Shown here one piece after another: positions 1,161 to 41,186 of a stretch of 64,000 bases of DNA. A model generated the notes under the pieces. The model saw only the letters and a list, made by a program, of their open reading frames with translations, was not told the origin of the DNA and ran no database searches. The first letter of the stretch is position 1, and the number at the start of each line of letters is the position of its first letter. Where the stretch lies: sequence record PP430345. One strand, given 5' to 3'. Made by a program: the position numbers and the translations under genes. This stretch comes from Escherichia phage vB_EcoM-LTH01.

Positions 1161-1543
1161 GTTTATCAAAAAATAGAAAAGAGTTTAATGAATTTATTGA
1201 CAGCTTGGCAGGAAAGCCTTATATTAATGCCATCGTCTCTAAATATCCTTTGGCGCATCTGACCTTTGTTCCAGAAAAGCGATTGTACCAACTGGAAGAG
1301 GATGAAGTATTTTGCTGTACGTGCGGTTGTGGTGAGGTAAAACCTATTATGGTCCCTTACCCAACATTGAGTGTTGTATCACATACCGACGGACTGGAGG
1401 AGGCAGTAATCCACGGTTTTTGGGTATCACCTTGTAAACAAAAAAGTTCTTTTGATGATGAAGGTATTGTTGAATACTATGACATTGAAGTATTCAATGA
1501 TAAAACTGGTGAAATTGTTAAAGTGGAGATCAATTACGAATGA
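1157..1543 (+). CDS. hypothetical protein with CCTCGCG cysteine cluster
   Basis: ORF track; ATGA overlap with upstream stop. Confidence 0.45.
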   Translation: MSLSKNRKEFNEFIDSLAGKPYINAIVSKYPLAHLTFVPEKRLYQLEEDEVFCCTCGCGEVKPIMVPYPTLSVVSHTDGLEEAVIHGFWVSPCKQKSSFDDEGIVEYYDIEVFNDKTGEIVKVEINYE

Positions 1544-1857
1544 AAATTGTATGGGGTTTTACTAAAATAATCTTTATGATCCTGTGCCTTGCTGTACTAA
1601 ACCCACATCGTTTACTGCTGGCCTTGATTCACCTTTTAGCTGCAATATTTAGTTTTATCGCTTGGCGACTAGAAGACCTCGCGGGCTTTATGGGGAAGTG
1701 CGTTAAGAAAGGCATGAAGAAATTCTGGCTTTTTGGTGAGAAGTTATTATCTGAGCCTTTACATAAGGAAATCGAAAAGCTGGATATTATTTTGAAGGCC
1801 GCAGAAAAGAAACTCAATCCGAATAATGTTGACAAGGAAAAGGATGATGGTGTATAA
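1540..1857 (+). CDS. putative membrane protein
   Basis: Two hydrophobic segments in first 45 aa; ATGA overlap. Confidence 0.4.
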   Translation: MKIVWGFTKIIFMILCLAVLNPHRLLLALIHLLAAIFSFIAWRLEDLAGFMGKCVKKGMKKFWLFGEKLLSEPLHKEIEKLDIILKAAEKKLNPNNVDKEKDDGV

Positions 1858-2050
1858 AGTATTCTGCGAATGGGATATTGGTCAAGAAGGTATTGCATTT
1901 GTTTCAGAAAAGGCAGCACTCAATTGGATAGAGGGTCAAAAAGATATTCTTCTGTCTGACATTGATGAGACTATAAAAAGTCTTATGAAGCAACGTCTTT
2001 TAGTTATTGAGCCACTAATTGTTATTGATGAAAAAGGAGAAAGAGTATGA
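1844..2050 (+). CDS. hypothetical protein
   Basis: ORF track 1826-2050; start moved to ATG 1844 after AAGGA RBS to reduce overlap. Confidence 0.35.
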   Translation: MMVYKVFCEWDIGQEGIAFVSEKAALNWIEGQKDILLSDIDETIKSLMKQRLLVIEPLIVIDEKGERV

Positions 2051-2655
2051 TCAAGAAGTTTGTTGCTTGGGTAAAATCGCTGTTTATTCCTCTGGAAGTA
2101 GAAACTGCGGCGATCGACAAGTATATTGCAAAGCAGGCCGAACAGCGTAAGGAGACTGAAAGCGTTAAATTCGGCCCAGTTGAAACACGCGATCTGGAAG
2201 AACCATTAAAAGAAAATGAGGTATTGGTTGGGGTAAACATCAAAGATAAGACGATGAAGGTTGTTGATATCTCTGTTGAACGACCAAAATCACAGGCTAC
2301 GCCGCCGAAACCGTTGGATGAACAACTGAAGGGTGTTGAATTACCGTCCTATGCTCAAGGTAAGAAATTACCACCGAAGGCAAAGCGACAGTATATTGAT
2401 CAGGCCCGTCGGGCAGCACCACGTAAGATGAGCGACTCTCCAAATGGGTATGGAACTAGCCAGGTTGATCCTCAGGTGGCAGCTTTAGGTGGTGTGGCAA
2501 CGTATACTGCTGTAATGTCCTCCAGTGAAGATCGTACAAGTAGTTCAAGTTCTCACTGTTCTTCAAGTCGGTCAAGTTCGTATGATAGCTCATCATCGTA
2601 TGATAGTTATTCTTCTGATAGTAGCAGCAGTAGTTCTTCAAGCAGTTGTGATTGA
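2047..2655 (+). CDS. hypothetical protein with Ser-rich low-complexity C-terminal tail
   Basis: ORF track; last ~45 aa are mostly S/D/Y. Confidence 0.5.
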   Translation: MIKKFVAWVKSLFIPLEVETAAIDKYIAKQAEQRKETESVKFGPVETRDLEEPLKENEVLVGVNIKDKTMKVVDISVERPKSQATPPKPLDEQLKGVELPSYAQGKKLPPKAKRQYIDQARRAAPRKMSDSPNGYGTSQVDPQVAALGGVATYTAVMSSSEDRTSSSSSHCSSSRSSSYDSSSSYDSYSSDSSSSSSSSSCD

Positions 2656-2722
2656 TATTTAAGAGAGGGGCCGAAAGGCTCCTCACATCGGGAGTAAGAG
2701 TTTTAATTAGAGGAGTGATGAA

Positions 2723-3124
2723 ATGCGTAAAGTATACCCTAAGAAGCCAAATGCCACTAAAACCCCACGCTACGGTTCTGAAGAATGTCCGCGAATCACG
2801 GATGAAGAATCTCGTATCGTTAAGGAAAATTTTGCAGAAATATTTTTGTTTGGTCCCACTAATAATGATCCGTACACTCTGTTGGCTGAACGTTTAGGCT
2901 CAGATCGCAATCGAGCAAAAACTGTATACTATGCTTGGGTTTATCGACAGAAAGGTCATTATTTTCGTCATGTTACTCGGGAGCGTCAAGTTCGTTCACG
3001 TTTAGTCTGTCGTATCAAAAAGTACACAGAATTCTTAAACAATCCAGAAACTATCTATCAGATTATGTGTCGTGCAGAAGATGAGGTTGACGAACTGATT
3101 GCTAAGGGGACTATCAAACAATGA
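2723..3124 (+). CDS. hypothetical protein
   Basis: ORF track; GAGGAG RBS upstream. Confidence 0.45.
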   Translation: MRKVYPKKPNATKTPRYGSEECPRITDEESRIVKENFAEIFLFGPTNNDPYTLLAERLGSDRNRAKTVYYAWVYRQKGHYFRHVTRERQVRSRLVCRIKKYTEFLNNPETIYQIMCRAEDEVDELIAKGTIKQ

Positions 3125-3272
3125 TGATTTCTCCAGAGATTTTTGTAACGTTTTTCATTATGGTTTCTCTTGCAGGATCAAGGTTTTTACCTTTCAACGT
3201 ACTAAGTGCGACATGGTTCATACTTGGGACAATATTTGCAGTAGAGACTACAAAATATTTTGGAGGTAGCTA

Positions 3273-3572
3273 TTGAAAAGGTTAATCATTTTATGTATAC
3301 TTCTTCTTGTTGGTTGCGGAGAGGGTGAAGATGAGCAGACAAAGCGATACAAAAATCTACCTTCTCTGATGCCAACAGAGGTTAAGGAGTTACACGAATT
3401 TTGCAAGAAGCAACACAATTATTACAACAGTTATGCGGTTGTTGTTGATGGTGAAGCAAAATCTGTAATTTGCAAGTTCAAAGATAGTGAACGTGAAAAA
3501 GGTATCTCCTCAGGTTATACGTGGGATGCTCAAAGTTTAAGAGATAAAATGAAGGGGGTTAAAAATGAGTAA
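3273..3572 (+). CDS. putative lipoprotein (TTG start)
   Basis: N-terminus MKRLIILCILLLVGCGEGED has signal peptide plus lipobox LVGC; GGAGG RBS at 3262-3266. Confidence 0.5.
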   Translation: MKRLIILCILLLVGCGEGEDEQTKRYKNLPSLMPTEVKELHEFCKKQHNYYNSYAVVVDGEAKSVICKFKDSEREKGISSGYTWDAQSLRDKMKGVKNE

Positions 3573-3753
3573 TGATCTTAGTTCACATGCGGTAATGGGA
3601 CCTGGTGGTGCACTGATCGGGATCGCAATCACAAAAGGTATTGCAAATGAAATTATCATGGAGTTTCAAAAGAAAGGTCGAACGGGTTACTATGCAACCC
3701 CTGTAGAAAGTTGGATGTTAGATTACTTTAAAGACGATACCGAGGAGGCTTAA
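3565..3753 (+). CDS. small Gly-rich membrane protein
   Basis: GPGGALIGIAITKGIA hydrophobic helix; overlaps neighbours by a few nt. Confidence 0.4.
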   Translation: MSNDLSSHAVMGPGGALIGIAITKGIANEIIMEFQKKGRTGYYATPVESWMLDYFKDDTEEA

Positions 3754-4340
3754 TGGAATACATTAGTTGGTTGTTTATCTTATCTGCGTGGGTTATCTTT
3801 GCTATCTGGTTAGCCCCTGTGATCATCGCTTTCCGTCGTAATCACAAGAACAAGGTTGTAATTTTAGCTTTGTCATTCTTTACTTCAATGATCCCTTACC
3901 CGCTTGCATTGTTTGCTTGTTGGATAGTTCTGTTGGCTTGGTCATTGTATAAAGTTTCAGTGGTCAATGATGGCTCAAAGTCTGCATATTTAGATTCTAA
4001 GTATCTTGAGTATGCAAAAGGACCGCAAGGTTTACCTGGTCCAATGGGTCCCCGTGGAGAGTCTGCTTATGAAACATACCTGAGAATTCTTCGTAAAGAA
4101 GATCCTAGCGCTATCCCACTAAATGAGAAGGATTGGCTGGATAGTTTAAAAGGGTTGGATGGTGACAAAGGTGATCGAGGGCCATCTGCATACGATCTGT
4201 ATTGCTTATCTGTATGGTCCAAAGGTGATGGTAAAGTACCTCTGTCTTTAGATGAGTGGCTAGAATCTCTCCGTGGTAAAGATGCAGACGAATTACCTTT
4301 ATCTAAAAAAGGTGTCGTTAGTCCACCAAAACGTCCTTGA
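3753..4340 (+). CDS. membrane protein with short collagen-like Gly-X-Y motifs
   Basis: Two N-terminal TM helices, then GPQGLPGPMGPRGESAYETYL and DGDKGDRGPSAYDLY motifs resembling modules of the collagen-like structural protein. Confidence 0.5.
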   Translation: MEYISWLFILSAWVIFAIWLAPVIIAFRRNHKNKVVILALSFFTSMIPYPLALFACWIVLLAWSLYKVSVVNDGSKSAYLDSKYLEYAKGPQGLPGPMGPRGESAYETYLRILRKEDPSAIPLNEKDWLDSLKGLDGDKGDRGPSAYDLYCLSVWSKGDGKVPLSLDEWLESLRGKDADELPLSKKGVVSPPKRP

Positions 4341-4394
4341 CAGAAAGTTAAGTGTGGGGCATAATGGCCCCACTTAAACAACAGAGGAAAGAAG

Positions 4395-4775
4395 ATGAGT
4401 ATTTTTGACGGTAAAGATTATTTGGTTGCTGATTGGATTCCTATCTCTGCGACACGTAACATTCACATTTACGATGGTGTTAAGAATTTGAATACGACGA
4501 TCATCTACACAAACAGTGAAGAAGACCGTGAAATGCAAATCATGAGTGTCTTCGGTATTGATGATGAGAATAAGATTGAAAAAGGTCGTGCTCGTATTGG
4601 TATCGACATTTTCGACCTGTCTGGTGACCAAAGTGCAGATCCCGTAAACATTGACCGTTCTCGTGTGTTTGCTCACAAAGAAGAACAATTTACGGAAGAA
4701 CTTATTAAAGACTTGCAGATGATCAACACTTTGTTTGATAATGTTCATGAAAAAGTTAAGCGAGTTTATCTCTAA
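4395..4775 (+). CDS. hypothetical protein
   Basis: ORF track; AGGAAAGAAG RBS. Confidence 0.5.
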   Translation: MSIFDGKDYLVADWIPISATRNIHIYDGVKNLNTTIIYTNSEEDREMQIMSVFGIDDENKIEKGRARIGIDIFDLSGDQSADPVNIDRSRVFAHKEEQFTEELIKDLQMINTLFDNVHEKVKRVYL

Positions 4776-4782
4776 AAGTTGT

Positions 4783-4811
4783 TTGCAATTCAAATAAGTT
4801 AGTTGTAATAT
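4783..4811 (+). promoter_or_regulatory. putative sigma70-like promoter (TTGCAA-17-TAATAT)
   Basis: Hexamers read directly upstream of the 4859 gene. Confidence 0.35.
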
Positions 4812-4858
4812 AGTTTCTCGGCCTTAAGTGGTGTGTTCAATAGTTAAAGGAGATTTAA

Positions 4859-6034
4859 ATGTCTGAAGTTAAAGTTATCAATGCTGTATACGATGCTGTT
4901 TCCGATACCACAGTAAACATTGCAGCAGGTACGATTGAACGTATCCTCATTAAACGTATTAATGAAGATGGTAGTCCACGCGTTACCACCTTTAAAGATA
5001 AGAATACAGGTCAGCAAAAAAGCATTAACAATACCCACCGCTATGCAGTTCTTCTGAAAGAAGGTGAAGACCAGGCTTGGATTTCTTTTGGTGAAGGTGA
5101 AGTTAAAAACCTGAAGTATGAGAATCAGTTCCAGATTAAAAATCCTGAAGGTGGTTACACTGATCTTAAAGAAGGTATGAAAATTCGCTTACCTGTTGTT
5201 ATCAAGACCTACACCAAACAAGATGGTAGTCAGGGTTCTTCTACGGAAGGTAAGAAAGCACGTATCAAGATTACTGACGCATCCGGTGCTCGTGAGCCTC
5301 GTCAGCAACAGCAGCAATCAAGTGGTTCCCAACAGCAGCAAAAGCCGTCTGGTGGTGCAGCTAAGAAGATTTATGGTGATATCACATCTATCGAAGGCAA
5401 TAAGGTAGTTGTTAAGCTGGAAGACGGCACAGAAGTTACTGTAAACCTCACTGATGAACAGACGGGTCAGATTACAGAAGGTGGTCGTATTGCAGGTGTT
5501 CGTTCAGATGATGGTACGGTTACAAGCTTTAAAGCTTACGGTCCAAAAGGTGCAAATACTGGAACAGGATCACGTTCAGGTAAAGGTAAAGACGATCTGC
5601 CTATTCGTTTAGGTAATGCACTGTCTATCACAGATGCGATGTTCCCGAATGAAACGATCGCAAATCAGGGTATTGTTGTAGAGCAAGTTCTTGCAGCGAT
5701 GGACTCCATTAAAGCAAAACTTCGCGAAGAGTTTAAATCTATGGATGATTATTCTTTTGGTGCTCGTTTAGGCCAGTGTGGTATTCTTTCTGCCCGTTGG
5801 GGAAGTAATAACATTGAAACGTTTATTGCTAAAACAGAAGAGAATTTCCGATTTATCTGTCAGTTGGAAGATAAGATCCGTAACGGGGCTTCAACCCCTA
5901 AGCAAGAAGAAAAGAAATCTGAGCCGGAACCGCAGTTAACTCCGTCAGCAGAAGATTCACCTACACCTGATATCGAAGGCCATGTGAATATGTCTGTAGA
6001 TGATATGGATTTTGACGACGATATTCCGTTTTGA
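4859..6034 (+). CDS. ssDNA-binding-like protein with E. coli SSB-type acidic C-terminal tip
   Basis: Strong RBS AAAGGAGA; C-terminus MSVDDMDFDDDIPF matches the host SSB tip; internal Q/G/S-rich linker (REPRQQQQQSSGSQQQQKPSGG); N-terminal fold not assignable by eye. Confidence 0.5.
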   Translation: MSEVKVINAVYDAVSDTTVNIAAGTIERILIKRINEDGSPRVTTFKDKNTGQQKSINNTHRYAVLLKEGEDQAWISFGEGEVKNLKYENQFQIKNPEGGYTDLKEGMKIRLPVVIKTYTKQDGSQGSSTEGKKARIKITDASGAREPRQQQQQSSGSQQQQKPSGGAAKKIYGDITSIEGNKVVVKLEDGTEVTVNLTDEQTGQITEGGRIAGVRSDDGTVTSFKAYGPKGANTGTGSRSGKGKDDLPIRLGNALSITDAMFPNETIANQGIVVEQVLAAMDSIKAKLREEFKSMDDYSFGARLGQCGILSARWGSNNIETFIAKTEENFRFICQLEDKIRNGASTPKQEEKKSEPEPQLTPSAEDSPTPDIEGHVNMSVDDMDFDDDIPF

Positions 6035-6054: not shown

Positions 6055-6084
6055 TAAAGGCGCTCATTTGAGCGCCTTTTCTTT
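6055..6084. terminator. bidirectional rho-independent terminator between convergent genes
   Basis: Hairpin AGGCGCTC-ATTT-GAGCGCCT flanked by A-run on one side and T-run on the other. Confidence 0.6.
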
Positions 6085-7318
6085 ATGCTGGAATAACTAT
6101 ACCTTCCAAGTTAAACTTCTGAGCTATCGTATTAGAGGCCGTAAAGTCAGCAGGGTACATAGCCCCTGTGTAACCTCTCCCTGTCCAGTAAAGATTACCA
6201 TTGCCACTAACAATTACTTTAAAAGTGTCAGCCAATGAGCCAGTCATATGGAGAATGCCGCCATCATCTATAATATCTTGATGTATGCTTTCAAAAGATG
6301 TTGCGTTGGTGGTTATAGGAAGATCTCTAAATAAGGAGTATGTGTATCCACCTTGTCCACCTGTCGATTGATAAACTCCATTAACCCTGTCAGAGATGAA
6401 TACTTGCAGTGCTGCCCTAGTGCTCACACTTGCGTTTGTATAACTGATCTGGTTAGTTAGGTAAACTTCAACTCCAGCAGGAATGCTTGCCATAGGTGCT
6501 AAATTAGGACCGAGGACGTTGGTTGAGTTTATCCCTGCTCTTGCTGCCGATCCAACTGCATCCCATGACCCATCTTCCCTCTGTGCAACAATAAGTATAA
6601 TAGATTGAGCACCTGAACCGCCAGCCGTGTTAGCCACTTGACCACGAGCACATTTTGCCCTAATATATCTTACAGAAGGGTCCCCAATAGTTGTCCAAGT
6701 TGATAATATTGTTCCGGCAGAAGTACCTGCTACTTGATCTACACCATTGTCGCCTCGGTATTTTAAAGTCCCATCAACCTCGACACGAATAGCATTATAG
6801 TTTGCAAAATACAGATATTTTGTTTTTTCACCCCAAGCTATTTGGGGTCCGTCTGGAAGAAGTCTATAAACAGTGCCGTCAGGTTGGATCGCATATGATC
6901 TAGCTATTTGTATTGCGGAAGATAAGATATTTACGCCGTCAACAATGTATGCAGATTCAGGCAAGACGTTCCAACTGTTTTGGAGAGTTGTGTCAACAGC
7001 GGGGAAGATTACGGCAGAGATATATTCATAGTGGTTATTATTTTTCTTAACCCATACACCGCCGTACAGTGTACTGTCTGTGCCTGCCTCATAAACTTCT
7101 TCGACACCCGTGTTAGTGAGTGTCCATCCAGAAGTTGCATTATTTGTGGTCCCTGTTTTACCAAGCCCGTTTAAATAATTAGATCCGGTTACATACAGAT
7201 GCCCATTAGTAAGCAAAATAAAAATATTTCCTGTACTGGTGCTTACGGCATATTTGATTGTAACGCCTACAGGCAGCGGAACACCGCCGCCGAAGTTAAT
7301 AATTGGAAAAGGGATCAT
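6083..7318 (-). CDS. putative tail fiber / receptor-binding protein
   Basis: Last gene of tail module, Gly/Thr/Asn-rich; AGGAGG RBS; family not assignable by eye. Confidence 0.45.
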   Translation of the reverse strand: MIPFPIINFGGGVPLPVGVTIKYAVSTSTGNIFILLTNGHLYVTGSNYLNGLGKTGTTNNATSGWTLTNTGVEEVYEAGTDSTLYGGVWVKKNNNHYEYISAVIFPAVDTTLQNSWNVLPESAYIVDGVNILSSAIQIARSYAIQPDGTVYRLLPDGPQIAWGEKTKYLYFANYNAIRVEVDGTLKYRGDNGVDQVAGTSAGTILSTWTTIGDPSVRYIRAKCARGQVANTAGGSGAQSIILIVAQREDGSWDAVGSAARAGINSTNVLGPNLAPMASIPAGVEVYLTNQISYTNASVSTRAALQVFISDRVNGVYQSTGGQGGYTYSLFRDLPITTNATSFESIHQDIIDDGGILHMTGSLADTFKVIVSGNGNLYWTGRGYTGAMYPADFTASNTIAQKFNLEGIVIPA

Positions 7319-27153: not shown

Positions 27154-28851
27154 TTAATAGACATTACCGGTTTGAATAGTTTGTGTAGCTCCGTCAAAAA
27201 TACAAATAGAATATATTGACAATCTCCCACCTGTGTCACTTGAAGAAGATTTATTCATCGTTGCTGTTATCCAAACCCTCCAACAACTTCCGTCGTTATT
27301 GTCTGTAACAACAAGGTGCATTGTATCTGGATACCCTACAGTCGCCGACGCATTTTCAACATAAGCAACAGTATTGCTCAATGTTGCATTACTTACCCTC
27401 CCTGTTTTTATTCTATTAATATCCGTGTAGTTAGCCGTCAAGTACCATCCAAAATTTATTTGTCTGGAAGAAGACGATGTTCCTGCGGAGAAACCTACCT
27501 TAACTTGACTAGCCAAACCTGCGGCGTCAATAATAAGCCTTACATTACCATTATTAGTACCGGGTAAAGGTAACCACATTTTTTTAGTCCCAGTAGGTGT
27601 ATTATAAACCCCAGCTAAGGTAGGAGTAGCAGCTGGACCTACATCTCCTTTATCCCCTTTGTCCCCTTTCTCGCCCTTAGGACCTTGAGGGCCTATCATA
27701 CCTGCCGGACCTTGTGGTCCAATAGCACCTGTCTCCCCCTGAGGGCCAGTCGGACCCCTGATACCCTGAGGGCCAGCTATGCCTTGAGTGCCTTGAGGGC
27801 CTGCTGGGCCGATATCTCCTTTATCTCCCTTAGGACCTTGCGGACCCTCTGGGCCAGTTGGTCCTGCATCACCCTTCACTCCCTGGGGACCTTGTGGACC
27901 TTGAGGACCAGTCGGACCTATATTACCTTGAGGGCCAGTTGGACCCGTTGCACCAATTGGACCTTGAGGACCTTCAGGGCCTGCTGGACCTTCAGCGCCT
28001 ATATCCCCTTTAGGTCCTTGTGGTCCCATAGGACCCTGAGGTCCTTCAGCACCTTGATCACCTTTGGGACCAACAGCGCCTGCAATCCCCTGAATACCCT
28101 GGGGACCCTGAGGGCCTGTTGGCCCTTGTTCCCCCCTTGCACCTTGATCACCTTTTGGACCCTGCGGTCCTTGTGGACCTGTTGGCCCTTGAGATCCTTC
28201 TAAGGCTAAGATAACCCAATCTTCATTTGTACCAGGTTCTGAGCCAATACTGGCAGAACTGGCAAAATACGTTGAACCATTGTAAGAAACCGAATCATTT
28301 TCAGAATAAGATTCCTCAGCGTCCCAAGTACCTTTGAAAGTCAAACCAGCAGGGCCAACCTCACCTTTTTCCCCTTTAGGGCCTGTAAGTCCGATCGGTC
28401 CTTGCGGACCTTCTGCTCCAGTCTCACCCTTAGGACCTTCAGGGCCAACAAGTCCCTGAGGACCTTGCTCACCTTTTTGTCCTTGTGGCCCTTGCGGACC
28501 CATAGGTCCTTGAGGGCCAACAATACCAGCTGCCCCCGCTATACCTGCGGGACCTTGTTCTCCTTTATCACCCTTAGGACCTGTAAGGCCACGGACACCT
28601 TCATCTCCTTTGGGACCAATAGGACCTTGCGGTCCAATATCCCCTTTTGGACCCTGAGGGCCAGCAGGTCCAACTGGACCTTGTTCTCCCTGAGGTCCGC
28701 GAGGACCAGTGTTACCAACATCACCTTGTTCTCCGACACGGGAAAACAAATCTTTAAACAAATACCTCTTTCTTGCATTAAGATCGTAAACGGCAGTCCC
28801 GAAATAAACCCCGCTGTGATCTCCCGTAATACCTTTAGCTGTAGAAGGCAT
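27154..28851 (-). CDS. collagen-like triple-helix repeat protein with globular C-terminal domain (565 aa)
   Basis: Long uninterrupted Gly-X-Y tracts ([23 protein letters not shown]...), then ~170-aa non-collagenous C-terminus. Confidence 0.75.
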
Positions 28852-29547: not shown

Positions 29548-32500
29548 TTAACCTATAGTCATTGCTTGAGTACCCGTCAGGAACTCACCATCCCAGAACA
29601 AGGTCAGGATAGTGCGAGTAGCCCCGAGAGTAGGTGCTGTTCCGTTAGACCAAGCGATCTGGCTATCCCAGTTAATCTGACCACCGTTACCAGTGAATCG
29701 TAAGACTATGGTTTTAGCCCTTCCTGCTGGCAATCCGGTGATGACTAAGGATTTGTTGGTAGTCCCATCTAAAGTCCAAGCGTTACCTGTGCTTGCATCA
29801 ATTGCCCCTGTAGAAGCAACAACACGCAAATCGTACTGGTCCAGCTTAACCCATGCGCCGTTTTCACGAACATAGAACCCACCTTCCAGCGGTGCTTCCA
29901 GAACTGGAACCGTCAATGTAGACCAAGCACCATCTTTACGGACGTACTGGTTACCATCACGAGGTGCTTCCAGAACTTCTGCGGTAGGCAGTTCAGTCCA
30001 ATCACCGTCGGTACGGACATACAGCTTTCCGTCCCCTGGTGCGTCATACACGTTACCACCACCTAAGAATCCGAGCAGTGCCCAGTTCGTTGCGGAAGTT
30101 TTACGGTAATATTCCAGAGTGGAAGAGTTCAGGTACAAATCGTTAAGACGACCATCGCTAACCATCGGTGCACGAGGGAAAACAACCCACAATGTACCTT
30201 GATCACCTTTAGCACCTGTCGGACCAGAAGGGCCTTGCGGACCTTGGTTACCCGTTGGACCAACTGGTCCTACTGGACCTTGGATACGTCCTAAGTTTTC
30301 GTATGCTGCACCAGTCCAACCCCAGAAGTCACCTTGGATAAGATAACCTTGACCCAAAGTACCAGTTGAAGGTAATTCATCAGAGGTATCAAATCGACCA
30401 ATGATCTCTACACCAGGACCAATATCTCCCTGAGGACCTTGCTCACCCTGTGGGCCTTGGTCGCCTTGTGGTCCTACTTCACCACGTTCACCCTGAGGAC
30501 CTTGCTCCCCTTGTGGCCCTGTGGCTCCAGTATCACCTTTGTCACCTTTAGCGCCAGTCAATCCCTGAGGGCCCTGAGTACCCTGAGGACCTTGCTCCCC
30601 TTGTGGGCCACGGGCAACCCCAGCCTCTACAAAAGCAGTTCCGTCGAAAGCGTAACCGATCCCAGTGTCGTCTGTGACATAGAAATCACCTACAGCACCA
30701 GTTTGAGGAAGGTCTGCTTGAGATGGTACAGTTCCTTTAGGGATCAGGCCAGAGCCAACATCCCCCTTGTCGCCTTTGTCTCCTTTTGCACCAGTTTCAC
30801 CAGCAGGTCCTTGTGGTCCTTGGTCACCCGTAGAACCTTTCTCACCTTGTGGACCTTGAGGACCAACTTCTCCTTGAGGGCCGACCTCACCCTGCGGTCC
30901 GCGAACGGTTCCGGCAGAAACGAATTCCACGCCATCCCAAGCGTAACCGATCCCAGTGTCTTCAGCTACGTAGAAGTCACCTAATTCAGCAGTAGAAGGA
31001 AGTTCAGCGGAGGTTGCAACCAAACCTTTCAGCTTCAGTGCATCACCTGCGTCGCCTTTGTCTCCTTTGTCTCCTTTCTCACCAGTGTCGCCTTTGTCGC
31101 CCTTCAGACCCTGAGGTCCACGAGTAAGACCAGTCAGTACCCATGCAGTGCCATCCCAAGCATAACCATTACCTTCAGACTCTACAACGTAGAAGTCACC
31201 AGTGGTGGCATCGGCAGGAAGTGCTTCTTGAGTTGCAACAATACCACGAGCAACGATACCAATTCCAGTATCACCCTTATCACCCTTATCGCCCTTGTCA
31301 CCTTTTTCGCCAGTCTCACCCTGTGGACCAATACCACCTTGTGGACCAGTCTCACCTTGGGGGCCAGCAGGACCTTGTGCCCCTGTTGCACCCTGCGGTC
31401 CTTGTGCACCAGTCAGACCAATAGGACCTTGTGGACCTTGTGGTCCTACATCCCCTTGGGGACCTTTGATGTTACCAACGTTAGTCCACTGACCGCCAGT
31501 AAAGATATAAAGATCAGCTTCAATCAGATAAGCATCACCTTCACTAATACCAGTCTGAGGCAATTGGTCTTCGGAAGCTACTGAGCCAAGGATATTCAGA
31601 CCCGCACCAACAGGACCTTGTTCACCTTGTGGACCAGTTAATCCACGAGGGCCAGTTGCACCCACGTCACCTTTTTCACCCTTCAAGGTTGCAAGGTATT
31701 CATTAACTGAACCTTCGAAACCGTTAGCAACCGCGATAGTGTAGTTGTCGTCTCCTTTATCGCCTTTATCGCCTTTGTCCCCTTTATCGCCTTTATCACC
31801 CTTAGCACCAACTGGGCCTTGTGGGCCTTGGAAAGATCCCAAATCTTCCCAGTTACCAGTACCATCAGAAACGAAGACATTAGTTCCGATCAGGTAAGCA
31901 TCACCCGCATCAGCACCTGCTGGCAAACTTGCTTCATCGGCAACAGAACCTAAGATATTAATAGCGTTAGCATTCTTACCGTCAACACCAGGTTCACCCT
32001 GCGGTCCTTGTTCACCAACATCCCCTTTCTCACCCTTCAGCGATTCAAGAAATTCACGTTGAGAACCAACGTTACCGTTAGCCAGCCAGACCTGATAAGC
32101 AGAACGACCTTCAGGGCCAATCTGGCCTACTGGTTGCCATTTATCGGTATCTCCCGTCCAAACATACATCTTTTCTTGAATGATGTAGGCATCACCAGGT
32201 TTGTTCTCTTCTTGAGGAAGATCTTCGATACGCTGGAAAGAACCAAGGAGTTGCAGACCTATACCGTCAGCACCACGAAGGGTAGCCAACCAGTCATCGA
32301 CTGTTCCAACAAAGCCTGCGGTTTCAGCAACTTCAAATGCAGAAAGACCTTCAGGTCCAGCGAAGTTACCTACGTTTCTCCATTGTTTGATACCACCTTC
32401 AGTGATAACGGTAAAGAAACTCTGTCCGATTACGTATGTATCACCATTCGCAAGATCAACAACAGAAGGCAATTGATCTTCAGATGCCAAGGTGTCGAGG

Positions 32501-33348
32501 ATGTTGATACCAATACCAGCAGGGCCACGAGGACCTTCTACACCACGAGGGCCAGTTGCTCCAGTCAGACCGATAGGTCCAGTTGCGCCAGCAGGACCGA
32601 CTTCTCCAGTATCCCCTTTATCCCCTTTTTCACCCTGCGGGCCAACAGGTCCAGTTTCTCCGGCTGGGCCTTGTGGACCTGCTGGTCCTTGTTCACCCTG
32701 ATCGCCTTTGTCACCTTTGATGGTTTCTACAAACAGACCATCTGAACGTTGTTCCAGTTTGTTACCTGCATCTTGAGAAATGTCAGCACCAACTGGAGCC
32801 ACATACAGTGCACCTTCACGAACTTGCAAGCTGTTGTCGATAGCGGGGGAAACTTTAACTGCCAAACCATCAGGGTCTACAGACAAAGCGTTAGTTGAAG
32901 AGGTGGAAACTTTCAGGGATATACGGGAGTTTTTAGCAACCAGAGGATCTGCGGTAATTTCCAGTGCGTCACCAACAGCGGTAGTGGTAGCATGAACTGG
33001 CTCAACCAGAACACCTTCCAAACTGGCATCACCTTGAGCAGCAGCTTCTTCCGCAGTGACGTATTTTGCAACGTTCGCCTGAGAGGTAGATACTTTAGCA
33101 TCTCCAGCGGAAGCAAACAAGCCTTCCTCGTTATCAGTCTGAACCAGAGTCAGGGCGTTACCTGCACGGCGAGATAGCTTAACTTGAGCTTGCAGAGGGG
33201 AAGAGGTAGTACCATTACCAACTAACAGGGTAGATACAGTATCTTCCGTTTCAATACCGTTAAAAATAACTCCACCACCAGTGGTAGTTACGACAGGATC
33301 AGGAGCAGTAACGAATGCTTCCACGACCTTATCATTATATTCAGCCAT
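29548..33348 (-). CDS. giant modular collagen-like fiber protein (1266 aa)
   Basis: At least eight Gly-X-Y blocks alternating with ~40-aa repeated globular modules (GDAYLIG..., [17 protein letters not shown]...), [12 protein letters not shown] runs, three C-terminal repeats (YVR.DG.W). Confidence 0.75.
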
Positions 33349-38870: not shown

Positions 38871-40358
38871 TTATCGTCTATACCTGGAATACATCGTAGG
38901 GGCGTGAGGTCGTGGTATTGGAACAGCACGGACAATTTCTGTTTTCTCCAGATAGTTAATACCCGAAGAGATGGCATCCACCCAGTCGTCCTTACGTGAT
39001 CCAGTTGACCTCTCGCCGTCGAAAGATTCAAGTTCCTTCAATAAAGCTTCTAATGTGTCCACAGGGAAAGATTTCTCAACAATCCGTACAAATCCGTTCT
39101 GTGCTAAGTTAGCGAACGGAGAGAAGCGTACAAGCTTCTTTTTGTTACCTGGTGTTGGGTCTTTCTCAACCATGAACCCTTGATTCAATAACTCACGAGA
39201 AGATGTAGTAAATTCGGATAGACCTGCTTGACCAGGGTCAACAGGGAAGATGATCCTAACGTCATCTCCGTCATGTATTGCCTGTTTAAGAATAATCTTG
39301 TCACGCTCACCTGCTTTTTTGCAGAAGCGTCCGGCTTGTCCAGTGGACCAATCGCCAGTATCAACGAATTCATCACAATAATCACCGAACAGGTAGTAGA
39401 ACCCATCCTGATCTCGCGCTACACCTATACCTGCCGTGAAGTCAGGTGTTTTGTTACCTGTGGAACGCTCTGTACCTGCTTTATCGTAAGATCTAACCTT
39501 GTCGCAATTAAGCGGGAGATGATCTACATTTTTGAGGAAAGAACGTTTAAAATAGTTTGCACCCTGCGGACGAGCATCCCAGTTACCATGAAGAAGTCGT
39601 GCACGGTCAACCTCGTTAAGACCTTCCAACTGAGCAAGGTATTCGGGGTTGTTGATAAGCATTGGCGGGTTGTCATAAATAGTGGAAGATATGAATGTGA
39701 ACGATACGGGCTTACATTTCTTACCATAACGTTTCTTCAACTCCTCTACTGAGTCTCCCCACATGTATTGGTCATCCACACGGACGAAATAACGAATAAC
39801 TCCGTCTTTTTCAGGATTAGGATAGCCATCCTTATCGAGATACCAGTCAACCATCTTACGAAGGTAATGATCAGGATCAGGGTTGCAACTTATTACCATA
39901 CGGGAAGGGTATTTTGAGTTTGAACGCAAACGGGACATCATATATTCCAACTGTTCCCATTCGAACTGTGTTCCTTCGTCAACTCCGATAAAGGTAAACT
40001 CCAATCCCTGAATATCGAATTTATCGCTTACGTGTTGCATAGACTGCCATTTAACGGTAGCCCCGTTAGGAAATGTTGCAGTCATTTCATTTTCTTTAAA
40101 CTTAGGCTTAACTACCGGAGGTAGTTGGTTGTAAATATCCTTAGCTTTGTCGAACAAACCACCTTGTCCACGAATCTGAGGGACGGTACGACGGAACATG
40201 ATACATGCTGTTCTGGGGTCGTTTACAATCAACAAAGGCATCAACTGGAGCAGGTAGGACTTACCTGATCCTGCTGCACCACCTATAACCATTATTTGTG
40301 CGTCAGATTCGAGAACCATTTGTTGCTTTCGACTCGCTGGTGCGAATGTAGCAGACAT
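38871..40358 (-). CDS. terminase large subunit
   Basis: Walker A GGAAGSGKS near N-terminus, Walker B-like FIGVDEGTQF, C-terminal nuclease-sized domain; first gene of head module. Confidence 0.85.
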   Translation of the reverse strand: MSATFAPASRKQQMVLESDAQIMVIGGAAGSGKSYLLQLMPLLIVNDPRTACIMFRRTVPQIRGQGGLFDKAKDIYNQLPPVVKPKFKENEMTATFPNGATVKWQSMQHVSDKFDIQGLEFTFIGVDEGTQFEWEQLEYMMSRLRSNSKYPSRMVISCNPDPDHYLRKMVDWYLDKDGYPNPEKDGVIRYFVRVDDQYMWGDSVEELKKRYGKKCKPVSFTFISSTIYDNPPMLINNPEYLAQLEGLNEVDRARLLHGNWDARPQGANYFKRSFLKNVDHLPLNCDKVRSYDKAGTERSTGNKTPDFTAGIGVARDQDGFYYLFGDYCDEFVDTGDWSTGQAGRFCKKAGERDKIILKQAIHDGDDVRIIFPVDPGQAGLSEFTTSSRELLNQGFMVEKDPTPGNKKKLVRFSPFANLAQNGFVRIVEKSFPVDTLEALLKELESFDGERSTGSRKDDWVDAISSGINYLEKTEIVRAVPIPRPHAPTMYSRYRR

Positions 40359-40458: not shown

Positions 40459-40758
40459 TTATTTGCAGAACTCTGGTGGATTTTCTTTAAAAATATTACA
40501 AACGTAGGTCTGTAATCCTTCAGCACGTCTTTCTATTCTTGCAGCACGAAGATTGTTATGACTAAGAACGTCAGCAACAGTTGTCTTTGCAGAGCGTTTT
40601 TCCATAACCAGCTTAGGACCTTCTTTCTTCATAAGTTCAAGATCCGGCTTTTCGATCAGCTTTTCTATCTTAACTTCTTCAGTAGGACCACAAATTTCTT
40701 TACTCTGACAACCAACAAGACCAAAACAAAGGATAATTCCGGCGATAATCTTCTTCAT
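40459..40758 (-). CDS. outer-membrane lipoprotein, o-spanin-like
   Basis: MKKIIAGIILCFGLVGC has signal peptide plus lipobox; several Cys; start overlaps stop of upstream TM/coiled-coil gene. Confidence 0.45.
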   Translation of the reverse strand: MKKIIAGIILCFGLVGCQSKEICGPTEEVKIEKLIEKPDLELMKKEGPKLVMEKRSAKTTVADVLSHNNLRAARIERRAEGLQTYVCNIFKENPPEFCK

Positions 40759-41117
40759 TATTCCCCCAGTGATTTGTTATAGATATCAACTATCTCATCA
40801 TCCATAAATATTTCTTGTCCCTTTTTAGATTTTGCATAGTCGATTCTCATTGCCTCTACTTCATCACGTAATTTTTCCTCAGCGATGATCCGTTTTGCAT
40901 TTGCATAAGAAAGTTCTTCATTCAATCTCTTATTCTCTTCCAATGTAGAGTCAAGCTTTCCTTTGTACTCAGTAGCTTTCTTTATCCAAGCCGTGTTTGC
41001 AGCATCGTAGCCTTTGTCATATCCCACAGACTCAACGTGTCCGAGATACAGTTTTCCAGAAGTAAATAACGCAACGCCGATCATTGCGTAAATGAAATAT
41101 TTTTTAGCGGGTAACAT
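40758..41117 (-). CDS. inner-membrane coiled-coil protein, i-spanin-like (start at internal ATG 41117)
   Basis: AAGGAGGA RBS 7 nt before ATG (MLPAKKYFIY...); N-terminal TM then coiled-coil; upstream ATG 41174 would fall inside a terminator. Confidence 0.45.
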   Translation of the reverse strand: MLPAKKYFIYAMIGVALFTSGKLYLGHVESVGYDKGYDAANTAWIKKATEYKGKLDSTLEENKRLNEELSYANAKRIIAEEKLRDEVEAMRIDYAKSKKGQEIFMDDEIVDIYNKSLGE

Positions 41118-41154
41118 ATAAATCCTCCTTTTGGATATTTTATCACCGAAATCA

Positions 41155-41186
41155 CAAATAAAAAAGCCTCCCAAATGAGGGAGGCT
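41155..41186 (-). terminator. intrinsic terminator ending the tRNA operon
   Basis: Hairpin GCCTCCC-TCATTT-GGGAGGC followed on minus strand by TTTTTTATTTG. Confidence 0.6.

What the first reader, a model, noticed from the sequence alone, without database searches (positions are those of the whole stretch)
3273..4340. Envelope-targeted trio in the early region: lipoprotein, small TM protein, 2-TM protein
Seen in sequence: three adjacent genes encode a lipobox lipoprotein (LVGC), a 62-aa Gly-rich TM protein and a 195-aa 2-TM protein. Inference: clusters of early envelope proteins in phages commonly mediate superinfection exclusion or receptor masking; this one is followed by a GC hairpin (4349-4378).
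Basis: inference. Interest (0 to 1): 0.45.

Follow-up and report, generated by a model that had tools for sequence, protein, structure and literature searches.

The report
Phage Imm-like protein with collagen tail
In a lytic E. coli phage of the rV5 subfamily, the reported envelope gene cluster is real: its core is a distant relative of phage T4's superinfection-immunity protein carrying a tail-fibre-like collagen tail, beside a lipoprotein found only in this phage group; what it does has not been tested.

Summary
All three are under purifying selection (pN/pS 0.07-0.25). The window is a Septuagintavirus-like phage (Vequintavirinae). The lipoprotein (3273-3572) is confirmed. The 195-aa protein (3753-4340) has two hydrophobic helices that resemble the T4 Imm / PF14373 domain at near-threshold level. 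These are followed by short collagen triplets, two copies of a module also found in the phage's own 1266-aa collagen-like fibre, and an invariant C-terminal peptide (GKDADE[I/L]PLSxxGV). The 62-aa protein is not convincingly transmembrane and occurs only in this genus. The genes are not an obligate trio. Phage A7_1 has deleted the mature lipoprotein, and one metagenomic relative keeps only the Imm-like gene. Canonical spanins lie elsewhere (40459-41117), so a spanin role is unlikely. The hairpin is not a plain terminator: it sits inside a conserved sigma70-like promoter, a composite like the T4-type PeSL elements. Best reading: an accessory superinfection-immunity module that blocks genome entry. 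This is inferred from weak homology and is untested. Receptor masking has no support. It is a new variant of a known kind, of moderate interest.

The parts
2665..2684 (+). GC-rich hairpin (GAGGGGCC-GAAA-GGCTCCTC) with no T-tract, in the 67-nt gap upstream of the five-gene block. It marks the upstream boundary of the block.
   Evidence: A hairpin sits at the same position in Certrevirus (GGGGGC-TTCG-GCCCCC). In SSBI34 the hairpin there lies inside a TTGACA...CATAAT promoter.
2723..3124 (+). 133-aa basic soluble protein (phrog_12333, function unknown). It is the first gene of the translationally coupled block and is present in every relative examined.
   Evidence: Its ATGA stop/start overlaps the next gene. 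pN/pS is 0.01-0.15.
3121..3276 (+). 51-aa small membrane protein with two hydrophobic helices (phrog_22594).
   Evidence: It is conserved as a 50-aa gene in Certrevirus. pN/pS is 0.07-0.29. It is absent in metagenomic relative L012.
3273..3572 (+). 99-aa lipoprotein precursor: TTG start, lipobox LVGC with Cys15, an acidic tether, then a small alpha-beta-beta-beta-alpha domain with two invariant cysteines (C44, C67).
   Evidence: AlphaFold2 mean pLDDT 77, above 90 for residues 30-70. Matches phrog_15849 at 5e-23. Only 6 related clusters appear among 1.84 billion representatives. No fold match was found. The mature part is deleted in phage A7_1.
3565..3753 (+). 62-aa protein found only in Septuagintavirus. 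It is probably soluble. It overlaps the lipoprotein gene by 8 nt and the next gene by 1 nt.
   Evidence: 5 phage records only; pN/pS 0.08-0.15; no credible transmembrane segment; no family match.
3753..3962 (+). Residues 1-70 of the 195-aa protein: Imm-like membrane domain. It consists of helix 2-28, the basic loop RRNHKNK, and helices 34-45 and 48-72.
   Evidence: PF14373 at 20.0 bits in the window protein and 24-27 bits in relatives, against a cut-off of 27.9. phrog_1039 'immunity to superinfection' at 2.7e-6. hhalign against T4 Imm gives 76% probability and E 2e-5. Shuffle control: 0 of 4000. AlphaFold2 pLDDT 73-85.
4020..4277 (+). Residues 90-175: two short collagen-like Gly-X-Y runs (90-102, 134-144) alternating with two copies of a fibre module, SAYxxY...(D/E)WLxSL(K/R)G (104-134, 145-175).
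   Evidence: The same module occurs three times in the window's own 1266-aa collagen-like fibre at 29548-33348(-). Relatives carry 0, 1 or 2 modules.
4278..4340 (+). Invariant C-terminal peptide KDADELPLSKKGVVSPPKRP, followed by the stop codon.
   Evidence: D177, A178, D179, E180, P182, L183, S184, G187, V188 and P191 are invariant in 16 sequences. The peptide is unique in the window. Among 50,697 phage records it occurs only in this family. It is retained where the lipoprotein is missing.
4337..4378 (+). Composite hairpin and sigma70-like promoter: -35 TTGACA at 4337-4342 (overlapping the stop codon), -10 CATAAT at 4360-4365, and stem GTGGGGC/GCCCCAC at 4354-4373 with the -10 in its loop.
   Evidence: The promoter is conserved at this position in CR3, CR9, KaOmega, DU_PP_I and SSBI34. 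It matches the published Certrevirus promoter consensus. The architecture resembles T4-type PeSL elements.

Best explanation
This is the far end of a probably early or middle transcription unit in a Septuagintavirus-like lytic phage. It carries accessory genes whose products go to the cell envelope. The core gene (3753-4340) encodes an inner-membrane protein whose two-helix N-terminal domain is a divergent T4 Imm-type domain. By analogy with T4 Imm, it would make the infected cell refractory to genome delivery by later-arriving related phages, acting at the inner membrane or periplasm.

The positive-inside rule places the basic loop in the cytoplasm and the C-terminal tail in the periplasm. 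That tail is built like a phage fibre, with collagen triplets and fibre modules, so it is probably trimeric. It ends in an invariant peptide that most likely docks onto a conserved partner, either a host envelope component or a part of the incoming phage's tail. The lipoprotein and the 51-aa membrane protein are optional companions, perhaps a second independent exclusion layer in the way that T4 pairs Imm with Spackle. The 62-aa protein is a genus-specific add-on of unknown role.

Shown: gene reality, architecture, conservation and dispensability. Inferred: topology, trimerisation, target and the exclusion function itself.
For: Imm homology:
- PF14373 is hit by the window protein (E 6.5e-4, 20.0 bits) and by relatives at 24.4-27.1 bits (E 4e-6 to 3e-5). 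In CR9 and SSBI34 the match covers the whole 42-position profile.
- phrog_1039 'immunity to superinfection' scores 2.7e-6.
- hhalign of the family against T4 Imm gives 76% probability and E 2e-5 over 57 columns spanning both helices.
- The family HMM scores T4 Imm at 12.2 bits. None of 4000 shuffles reached that, and five unrelated two-helix membrane proteins scored 0.4-2.1 bits.
- P22, H31 and N33 are invariant, and R29 is kept in at least 90% of sequences. From memory, these fit the R-x-H-x-N loop of PF14373.

Topology: there are no K/R residues before helix 1, 3-4 K/R in the 8-residue loop, and 0-3 after helix 2 in all nine family members examined.

Accessory, non-structural character:
- The lipoprotein is deleted in the viable phage A7_1, which was isolated on K-12.
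- Gene content between the 133-aa gene and the DUF7325 gene varies between lineages.
- The W70 homologues W70_101 to W70_103 are not among the 28 virion proteins found by mass spectrometry.

Not lysis: canonical i- and o-spanins lie next to the terminase gene, as published for this subfamily.

Periplasmic lipoprotein: lipobox plus two invariant cysteines.
Against: - Every PF14373 score is below Pfam's gathering threshold.
- The matched region is a short hydrophobic hairpin, where spurious similarity is common.
- The best segment-preserving shuffle reached 11.9 bits, close to the 12.2 bits of T4 Imm.
- T4 Imm is the only characterised member of the family and has no C-terminal extension, so transferring its function is a long step.
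- AlphaFold2 splits the second hydrophobic region into helices 34-45 and 48-72. This leaves open a re-entrant topology that would put the tail in the cytoplasm.
- Nothing links the lipoprotein, the 51-aa protein or the 62-aa protein to exclusion.
- PADLOC found nothing.
- No expression or phenotype data exist.
Confidence: 0.45

Rival explanations
1. Lysis or lysis-timing function. The Imm-like protein or the 51-aa two-helix protein would act as a holin or antiholin, or the lipoprotein plus the membrane protein with its long periplasmic stalk would form a second spanin-like bridge across the envelope.
For: The holin of this subfamily has not been firmly identified. The block combines a lipoprotein with an inner-membrane protein that has an extended tail, which is superficially spanin-like. 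The lipoprotein gives weak PHROG hits to Rz-like spanins (phrog_812, E 0.0067).
Against: A canonical i-spanin (40758-41117, phrog_4297, 2.5e-20) and o-spanin (40459-40758, phrog_1267, 9e-14) already sit next to the terminase gene, as published. The weak spanin score of the lipoprotein (phrog_812, E 0.0067) is far from those values. The lipoprotein is dispensable in A7_1. The gene order and two-helix anchor differ from i-spanins, which have one N-terminal helix and a coiled coil. The 51-aa protein lacks the charged C-terminal tail typical of holins. The block lies in the replication-gene transcription unit and is not next to an endolysin.
Confidence: 0.1
2. Morphogenesis factor. The 195-aa protein would be a membrane-anchored scaffold or chaperone that nucleates trimerisation of the phage's collagen-like fibres through its matching collagen and fibre modules, with its tail in the cytoplasm.
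For: The C-terminal half matches tail-fibre and tail-assembly PHROGs (phrog_19976 at 3e-8, phrog_4440 at 4e-5). It also matches three modules of the window's own 1266-aa fibre. The block abuts the tail-fibre gene cluster. In CR9 the next gene is annotated as a virion structural protein. The AlphaFold2 helix break at residue 46 allows a cytoplasmic tail.
Against: Certrevirus members have the same collagen-like fibres, but their homologues carry no fibre module and as few as 2-3 triplets. The modules are therefore not needed for the conserved function. The invariant parts are the Imm-like domain and the C-terminal peptide, and that peptide is absent from the fibres encoded in this window. The protein was not detected in W70 virions. 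The positive-inside rule favours a periplasmic tail.
Confidence: 0.12
3. The genes are unrelated accessory genes that happen to be adjacent in a variable region, each with its own envelope target. Examples would be silencing the host receptor or flagellum, inhibiting a host envelope enzyme, or countering a membrane-based defence. The Imm resemblance would be only a shared membrane-hairpin fold.
For: Gene content here varies between lineages. Hairpin and promoter elements bracket the block, as in the T4-type variable regions shuffled by PeSL elements. The C-terminal peptide is conserved with or without the lipoprotein. The whole block is confined to the Septuagintavirus, Certrevirus and SSBI34 clade, whose members share tail fibres and possibly a flagellar receptor.
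Against: The lipoprotein and the Imm-like gene are adjacent and translationally coupled in nearly all members. The Imm similarity exceeds composition and topology controls. No alternative target is indicated by any search.
Confidence: 0.25

Closest known systems
Phage T4 Imm (superinfection immunity protein; Pfam PF14373 Imm_superinfect)
   Same: Both are encoded by a lytic myovirus in the replication-gene region. Both have two long hydrophobic helices joined by a short basic loop. Sequence similarity is detectable at profile level.
   Different: All scores are below Pfam's threshold. The protein here is 195 aa against 83 aa in T4, and carries a collagen and fibre-like C-terminal tail with an invariant end peptide that T4 Imm lacks. 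Its function is untested.
Phage T4 Spackle (gp61.3), the periplasmic partner of Imm in T4 exclusion
   Same: It is a small exported protein made by a lytic phage alongside an Imm-type protein. This is a possible functional analogy for the lipoprotein.
   Different: Spackle is a soluble periplasmic protein, whereas this protein is lipid-anchored with an alpha/beta fold. No sequence or fold match to any solved structure was found.
Receptor-masking lipoproteins Llp (T5) and Cor (phi80, N15, T1)
   Different: The only similarity to Cor lies in the signal peptide (phrog_1119, E 0.053, residues 1-20). No fold match was found. Asp at position +2 in 7 of 15 family members predicts inner-membrane retention in those members. 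This gene is not next to a receptor-binding protein gene, as I recall llp being.
Inner-membrane exclusion proteins P22 SieA and HK97 gp15
   Same: These are phage inner-membrane proteins that block genome delivery after adsorption.
   Different: They are prophage-expressed and act against podoviruses or siphoviruses. No sequence similarity was detected.
Two-component spanins (Rz/Rz1)
   Same: Both pair a lipoprotein with an inner-membrane protein that has an extended periplasmic part.
   Different: The phage's real spanin pair is at 40459-41117(-). The protein here has a different anchor, gene order and tail type, and the lipoprotein is dispensable.
PeSL composite terminator/promoter elements of T4-type phages
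   Same: A stem-loop is combined with a sigma70-like early promoter at the boundary of accessory gene cassettes.
   Different: This is a different phage subfamily. Sequence homology to T4-type PeSLs was not tested, and a role in recombination is not shown.

Membership tests
Pfam PF14373 Imm_superinfect (T4 Imm family) | HMM score at or above the curated gathering threshold of 27.9 bits | tested here: not met
   The window protein scores 20.0 bits. Relatives score 24.4-27.1 bits and T4 Imm itself 58.2 bits. This is near-threshold and consistent across the family, but formally below the cut-off.
Pfam PF14373 Imm_superinfect (T4 Imm family) | Profile-level similarity to T4 Imm beyond what composition and topology explain | tested here: inconclusive
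   hhalign gives 76% probability, E 2e-5, over 57 columns. The family HMM scores T4 Imm at 12.2 bits; 0 of 4000 shuffles reached this, but the best shuffle scored 11.9 bits. Other two-helix proteins scored at most 2.1 bits.
Pfam PF14373 Imm_superinfect (T4 Imm family) | Two hydrophobic helices joined by a short basic loop, in a small phage membrane protein | tested here: met
   The helices span 2-28 and 34-72, and the loop is RRNHKNK.
T4 Imm (function) | Blocks DNA entry of superinfecting phage into an infected or expressing cell | not testable with these tools
   This needs plating, adsorption and DNA-entry assays.
Bacterial lipoprotein (Lgt/LspA substrate) | Basic n-region, hydrophobic core and a lipobox [LVI][ASTVI][GAS]C within the first ~25 residues | tested here: met
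   The sequence begins MKRLIILCILLLVGC with Cys15. G14 and C15 are invariant in the 7-sequence and 8-sequence family alignments.
Two-component spanin (o-spanin / i-spanin) | Match to spanin families; an i-spanin with a single N-terminal helix and a coiled coil; the only such pair in the genome | tested here: not met
   Only weak hits were found (phrog_812, E 0.0067). A canonical pair exists at 40459-41117(-) with E values of 9e-14 and 2.5e-20.
Cor / Llp receptor-masking lipoproteins | Sequence or fold similarity of the mature domain | tested here: not met
EexN entry-exclusion lipoprotein (NF033894) | Score at or above the curated cut-off of 33 bits | tested here: not met
   The score is 15.7 bits, E 0.01, over residues 3-47, which is largely the signal peptide.
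Collagen triple-helix repeat (PF01391) | Uninterrupted Gly-X-Y repeats scoring at or above 27.2 bits | tested here: inconclusive
   The window protein scores 14.6 bits and relatives up to 25.2 bits. Gly-X-Y runs of only 3-5 triplets are visible in the sequence. Trimer formation was not tested.
Holin | Small membrane protein with a charged C-terminal tail, expressed late, usually next to an endolysin | tested here: not met
   The 51-aa protein has only one Lys near its C-terminus. No holin family was hit. The block is not adjacent to an endolysin. Expression timing was not tested.
PeSL-type composite terminator/promoter | A stem-loop combined with a sigma70-like early promoter in an intergenic gap at a cassette boundary | tested here: met
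   Only the architecture was tested. Homology to T4-type PeSLs and promoter activity were not.

The most novel reading that the evidence does not exclude
The Imm-type membrane hairpin anchors a trimeric, phage-fibre-like collagen stalk in the periplasm. The invariant tip peptide of that stalk (DADE[I/L]PLSxxGV) captures or jams a conserved part of the incoming tail tip or genome-delivery conduit of related myoviruses, or a conserved host envelope protein those phages need. Stalk length would be tuned by adding collagen triplets and fibre modules. This would be a mechanistically new, 'fibre-mimic' form of superinfection immunity. It would also give the first physical handle on how Imm-type proteins work.
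Probability: 0.2. Interest if true: 0.7.

Novelty: new variant of a known kind. Interest (0 to 1): 0.42.

Why it matters
As far as I know, the mechanism of T4 Imm is still unknown. A natural variant that adds a modular, probably periplasmic stalk ending in an invariant peptide offers a ready bait for pull-down or two-hybrid identification of the target. Vequintavirinae phages are candidates for therapy and biocontrol cocktails, so exclusion between cocktail members would matter in practice. The genes are annotated only as 'hypothetical' in every public record I looked at. The genus description papers do not mention them.

Tried and rejected
- Spanin identity: rejected after finding the canonical pair at 40459-41117(-) and the matching literature.
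- AlphaFold2 of the 195-aa protein: only the membrane domain was modelled with any confidence, and the tail had pLDDT below 50. Coordinates are not exposed, so the direction of helix 48-72 could not be read.
- Wider homologue searches: the word-indexed search found only close relatives. A full HMMER scan of 1.84 billion representatives with the mature lipoprotein found 6 related clusters plus one spurious repeat protein. IMG/VR yielded 4 loci and 185,579 bacterial and archaeal genomes yielded none.
- Other libraries: PADLOC and NCBIfam gave nothing useful. Rfam found nothing in the locus.
- The C-terminal peptide was sought in the phage's own proteins and in all phage records, and occurs only in this family.
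- The 1993 paper on T4 Imm membrane topology is not held in the library, so I could not compare with its experimental topology.
- Reading the hairpin as a simple intrinsic terminator was rejected: it has no T-tract and the -10 element lies in its loop.
Full report
WHAT THE WINDOW IS. Bases 2700-5000 are 94-95% identical to five Escherichia phages: UPEC06, A5-4, A73, W70 and A7_1. These belong to the Vequintavirinae, and A5-4 is the type of the genus Septuagintavirus. In those records every gene of the locus is annotated 'hypothetical protein'. The locus lies downstream of the DNA polymerase gene and a run of small same-strand ORFs. It converges on the tail-fibre genes of the opposite strand at a bidirectional terminator at 6056-6079.

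OBSERVATION CHECK: THE GENES.
- The 99-aa ORF starts at TTG with GGAGG 7 nt upstream. It begins MKRLIILCILLLVGC, a textbook lipoprotein signal with Cys15.
- The 195-aa ORF has two strongly hydrophobic stretches.
- All genes are under purifying selection against the sister phages, with pN/pS of 0.07-0.25. This includes the 62-aa ORF, which shows 8-12 synonymous against 2-5 non-synonymous differences. They are therefore real genes.

OBSERVATION CHECK: THREE CORRECTIONS.
- The 62-aa protein is not a convincing membrane protein. No 19-residue window passes Kyte-Doolittle 1.6. Its best 17-mer (ALIGIAITKGIANEIIM) costs about +5.5 kcal/mol on a simple Hessa-scale sum, against -2.2 and +0.6 for the helices of the 195-aa protein (scale values from my memory).
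- The genes from 2723 to 4340 overlap stop-to-start (ATGA, TTGA, 8 nt, TAATG) and so form one translationally coupled block.

THE 195-AA PROTEIN: IMM-LIKE DOMAIN.
- Residues 18-43 hit Pfam PF14373 (Imm_superinfect, the T4 Imm family) at E 6.5e-4 and 20.0 bits, against a threshold of 27.9.
- phrog_1039 'immunity to superinfection' scores 2.7e-6.
- Shorter homologues (105-127 aa) sit at the same position in Certrevirus phages and Salmonella phage SSBI34.
- Those homologues and metagenomic relatives hit PF14373 at 24.4-27.1 bits. In CR9 and SSBI34 the match covers the whole profile.
- A profile of 16 family members aligns to T4 Imm over both helices, with 76% probability and E 2e-5.
- An HMM of the family's membrane domain scores T4 Imm at 12.2 bits. 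None of 2000 full shuffles or 2000 segment-preserving shuffles reached this, although the best shuffle scored 11.9. Five unrelated two-helix membrane proteins scored 0.4-2.1 bits.
I read this as a genuine but divergent Imm-type domain. It formally fails Pfam's cut-off.

THE 195-AA PROTEIN: C-TERMINAL TAIL. The family alignment shows this architecture:
- an Imm-like domain (1-70);
- a collagen-like Gly-X-Y run of variable length;
- zero, one or two copies of a module SAYxxY...(D/E)WLxSL(K/R)G;
- a C-terminal peptide, GKDADE(I/L)PLSxxGV, invariant in all 16 sequences.
The window protein has two modules. The same module occurs three times in the window's own 1266-aa collagen-like fibre protein at 29548-33348(-) (tblastn E 4e-6). 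This explains the tail-fibre PHROG hits. The terminal peptide occurs nowhere else in the window. Among 50,697 phage records it occurs only in this family.

TOPOLOGY. AlphaFold2 models only the membrane domain with moderate confidence: helices 2-28, 34-45 and 48-72 at pLDDT 73-85. Across the nine family members examined there are no K/R residues before helix 1, 3-4 in the loop, and 0-3 after helix 2. The positive-inside rule therefore puts the loop in the cytoplasm. If the second hydrophobic region crosses the membrane once, the tail is in the periplasm. That topology is an inference.

IS IT A UNIT? No, not strictly.
- The 62-aa gene exists only in the five Septuagintavirus records.
- Phage A7_1, isolated on K-12, carries a ~225-bp deletion. 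It reduces the lipoprotein to its signal peptide plus seven residues while preserving the ribosome-binding site of the next gene.
- In the most divergent metagenomic relative, the Imm-like gene directly follows the 144-aa gene, with neither the 50-aa gene nor the lipoprotein. It still keeps the invariant C-terminal peptide.
- CR9 and KaOmega insert a 214-217-aa gene after the Imm-like gene, and another relative inserts a 115-aa gene.
The Imm-like gene is therefore the conserved core, and its terminal peptide does not depend on the lipoprotein. The whole block, together with the neighbouring DUF7325 gene, is limited to the same ~28 phage records. It also appears in four IMG/VR contigs and in no bacterial genome.

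THE SPANIN RIVAL. The window holds only two lipobox ORFs. The other one (40459-40758, minus strand) hits phrog_1267 'Rz-like spanin' at 9e-14. It is preceded, with stop/start overlap, by an i-spanin (phrog_4297, 2.5e-20), and the pair lies next to the large terminase gene. This is exactly the arrangement published for LL12, CB7, rV5, PVP-SE1 and the Septuagintavirus KEC4. A spanin role for the locus is therefore unlikely. The W70 homologues of the trio are not among the 28 virion proteins detected by mass spectrometry. This weighs against a structural role, although small membrane proteins are easily missed.

THE HAIRPIN. The stem GTGGGGC/GCCCCAC (4354-4373) is stable (z = -3.6) but has no T-tract on the + strand. 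It lies between the -35 (TTGACA, 4337-4342, overlapping the stop codon) and the -10 (CATAAT, 4360-4365, in the loop) of an 11-of-12 sigma70 match. A TTGAC(A/T)-N17-TAnnAT promoter occupies the same gap upstream of the DUF7325 gene in CR3, CR9, KaOmega, DU_PP_I and SSBI34. In CR9 and SSBI34 a different GC stem again wraps the -10. This matches the early/middle promoter consensus published for Certrevirus. The composite resembles the terminator/promoter 'PeSL' elements that border accessory cassettes in T4-type phages. A second GC hairpin without a T-tract precedes the block at 2665-2684 and is also conserved in position. Rfam finds nothing here.

INTERPRETATION. The best-supported reading is an accessory envelope module whose core works like T4 Imm, as an early-made inner-membrane protein that makes the infected cell refractory to genome delivery by related phages.
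- Known from the literature: T4 excludes superinfecting phage with Imm plus the periplasmic protein Spackle. P22 SieA and HK97 gp15 are inner-membrane blockers of DNA entry.
- New here: the fibre-like, probably trimeric tail with an invariant tip peptide. I infer that it reaches into the periplasm to bind a conserved host or phage component.
- The lipoprotein may be a second, independent layer, analogous to Spackle but not homologous to it. Nothing tests that idea.
I put about 0.45 on the exclusion reading. The rivals are lysis timing (0.10), fibre morphogenesis (0.12), and unrelated envelope-directed accessory functions (0.25). The receptor-masking part and the 'trio' framing are not supported.

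NOVELTY AND SCORE. None of the literature searches I ran, nor the two genus description papers, mentions these genes or an Imm-type domain fused to a collagen or fibre-like tail. The public records call the genes hypothetical. I class it as a new variant of a known kind. Interest is moderate (0.42): the homology is weak and the function untested, but the architecture offers a concrete experimental handle on the unresolved Imm mechanism.

Noticed in passing
window 4859-6034 (+): This 391-aa protein (phrog_4477, unknown function) ends in ...DDMDFDDDIPF. By my recollection that is identical to the C-terminal protein-docking tail of E. coli SSB. Its N-terminus looks like an OB fold, followed by a Q/G/S-rich linker. 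It is probably the phage's SSB, or a mimic of the SSB tail that recruits host SSB partners.
   Followed up: no
window 4337-4378; L004:2836-2910, L005:3446-3524, L003:3468-3542, L007:2800-2874, L006:~3190-3256: A sigma70-like promoter with a GC stem-loop wrapped around its -10 element is conserved in position upstream of the DUF7325 gene across Septuagintavirus, Certrevirus and SSBI34, with different stem sequences. The architecture resembles a T4-type PeSL.
   Followed up: partly
window 2665-2684; L006:~1565-1595: A GC hairpin without a T-tract precedes the five-gene block. In SSBI34 the equivalent site is a full promoter-with-hairpin (TTGACAAGGGGCGTTATACGCCCCATAAT). The block is therefore bracketed by such elements.
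   Followed up: partly
L010:836-901 (phage A7_1) versus window 3273-3572: A natural ~225-bp deletion removes the mature lipoprotein and leaves MKRLIILCILLLVGCGENKGG*. The Shine-Dalgarno sequence of the downstream gene is kept.
   Followed up: yes
L001:6574-6873 (UPEC06): The lipoprotein gene is annotated from an internal ATG as a 67-aa protein. The TTG-initiated 99-aa ORF with its signal peptide is intact, so this is an annotation artefact.
   Followed up: yes
window 40459-41174 (-): A canonical o-spanin (99 aa, lipobox LVGC) and i-spanin lie here with overlapping stop and start codons, next to the large terminase gene (38871-40358).
   Followed up: yes
window 2047-2655 (+): This 202-aa protein (phrog_13005) ends in a long Ser/Asp/Tyr-rich low-complexity tail (SSSSSHCSSSRSSSYDSSSSYDSYSSDSSSSSSSSSCD). 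Certrevirus relatives have a gene of similar size (about 200-245 aa) at the same position.
   Followed up: no
window 27154-28851 (-) and 29548-33348 (-): Two large collagen-like proteins (565 and 1266 aa) are encoded here. The larger carries three SAY/F...WLxSL(K/R)G interruption modules, like those in the Imm-like protein.
   Followed up: partly
window 1540-1857 (+): A further small membrane protein lies in the same transcription direction: 105 aa, two hydrophobic helices, phrog_5603. Envelope-directed genes are thus not limited to the reported cluster.
   Followed up: no
window 6083-7318 (-): This 411-aa RCC1-like protein (phrog_15692) corresponds to W70_106, which was detected in W70 virions by mass spectrometry.
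   Followed up: no
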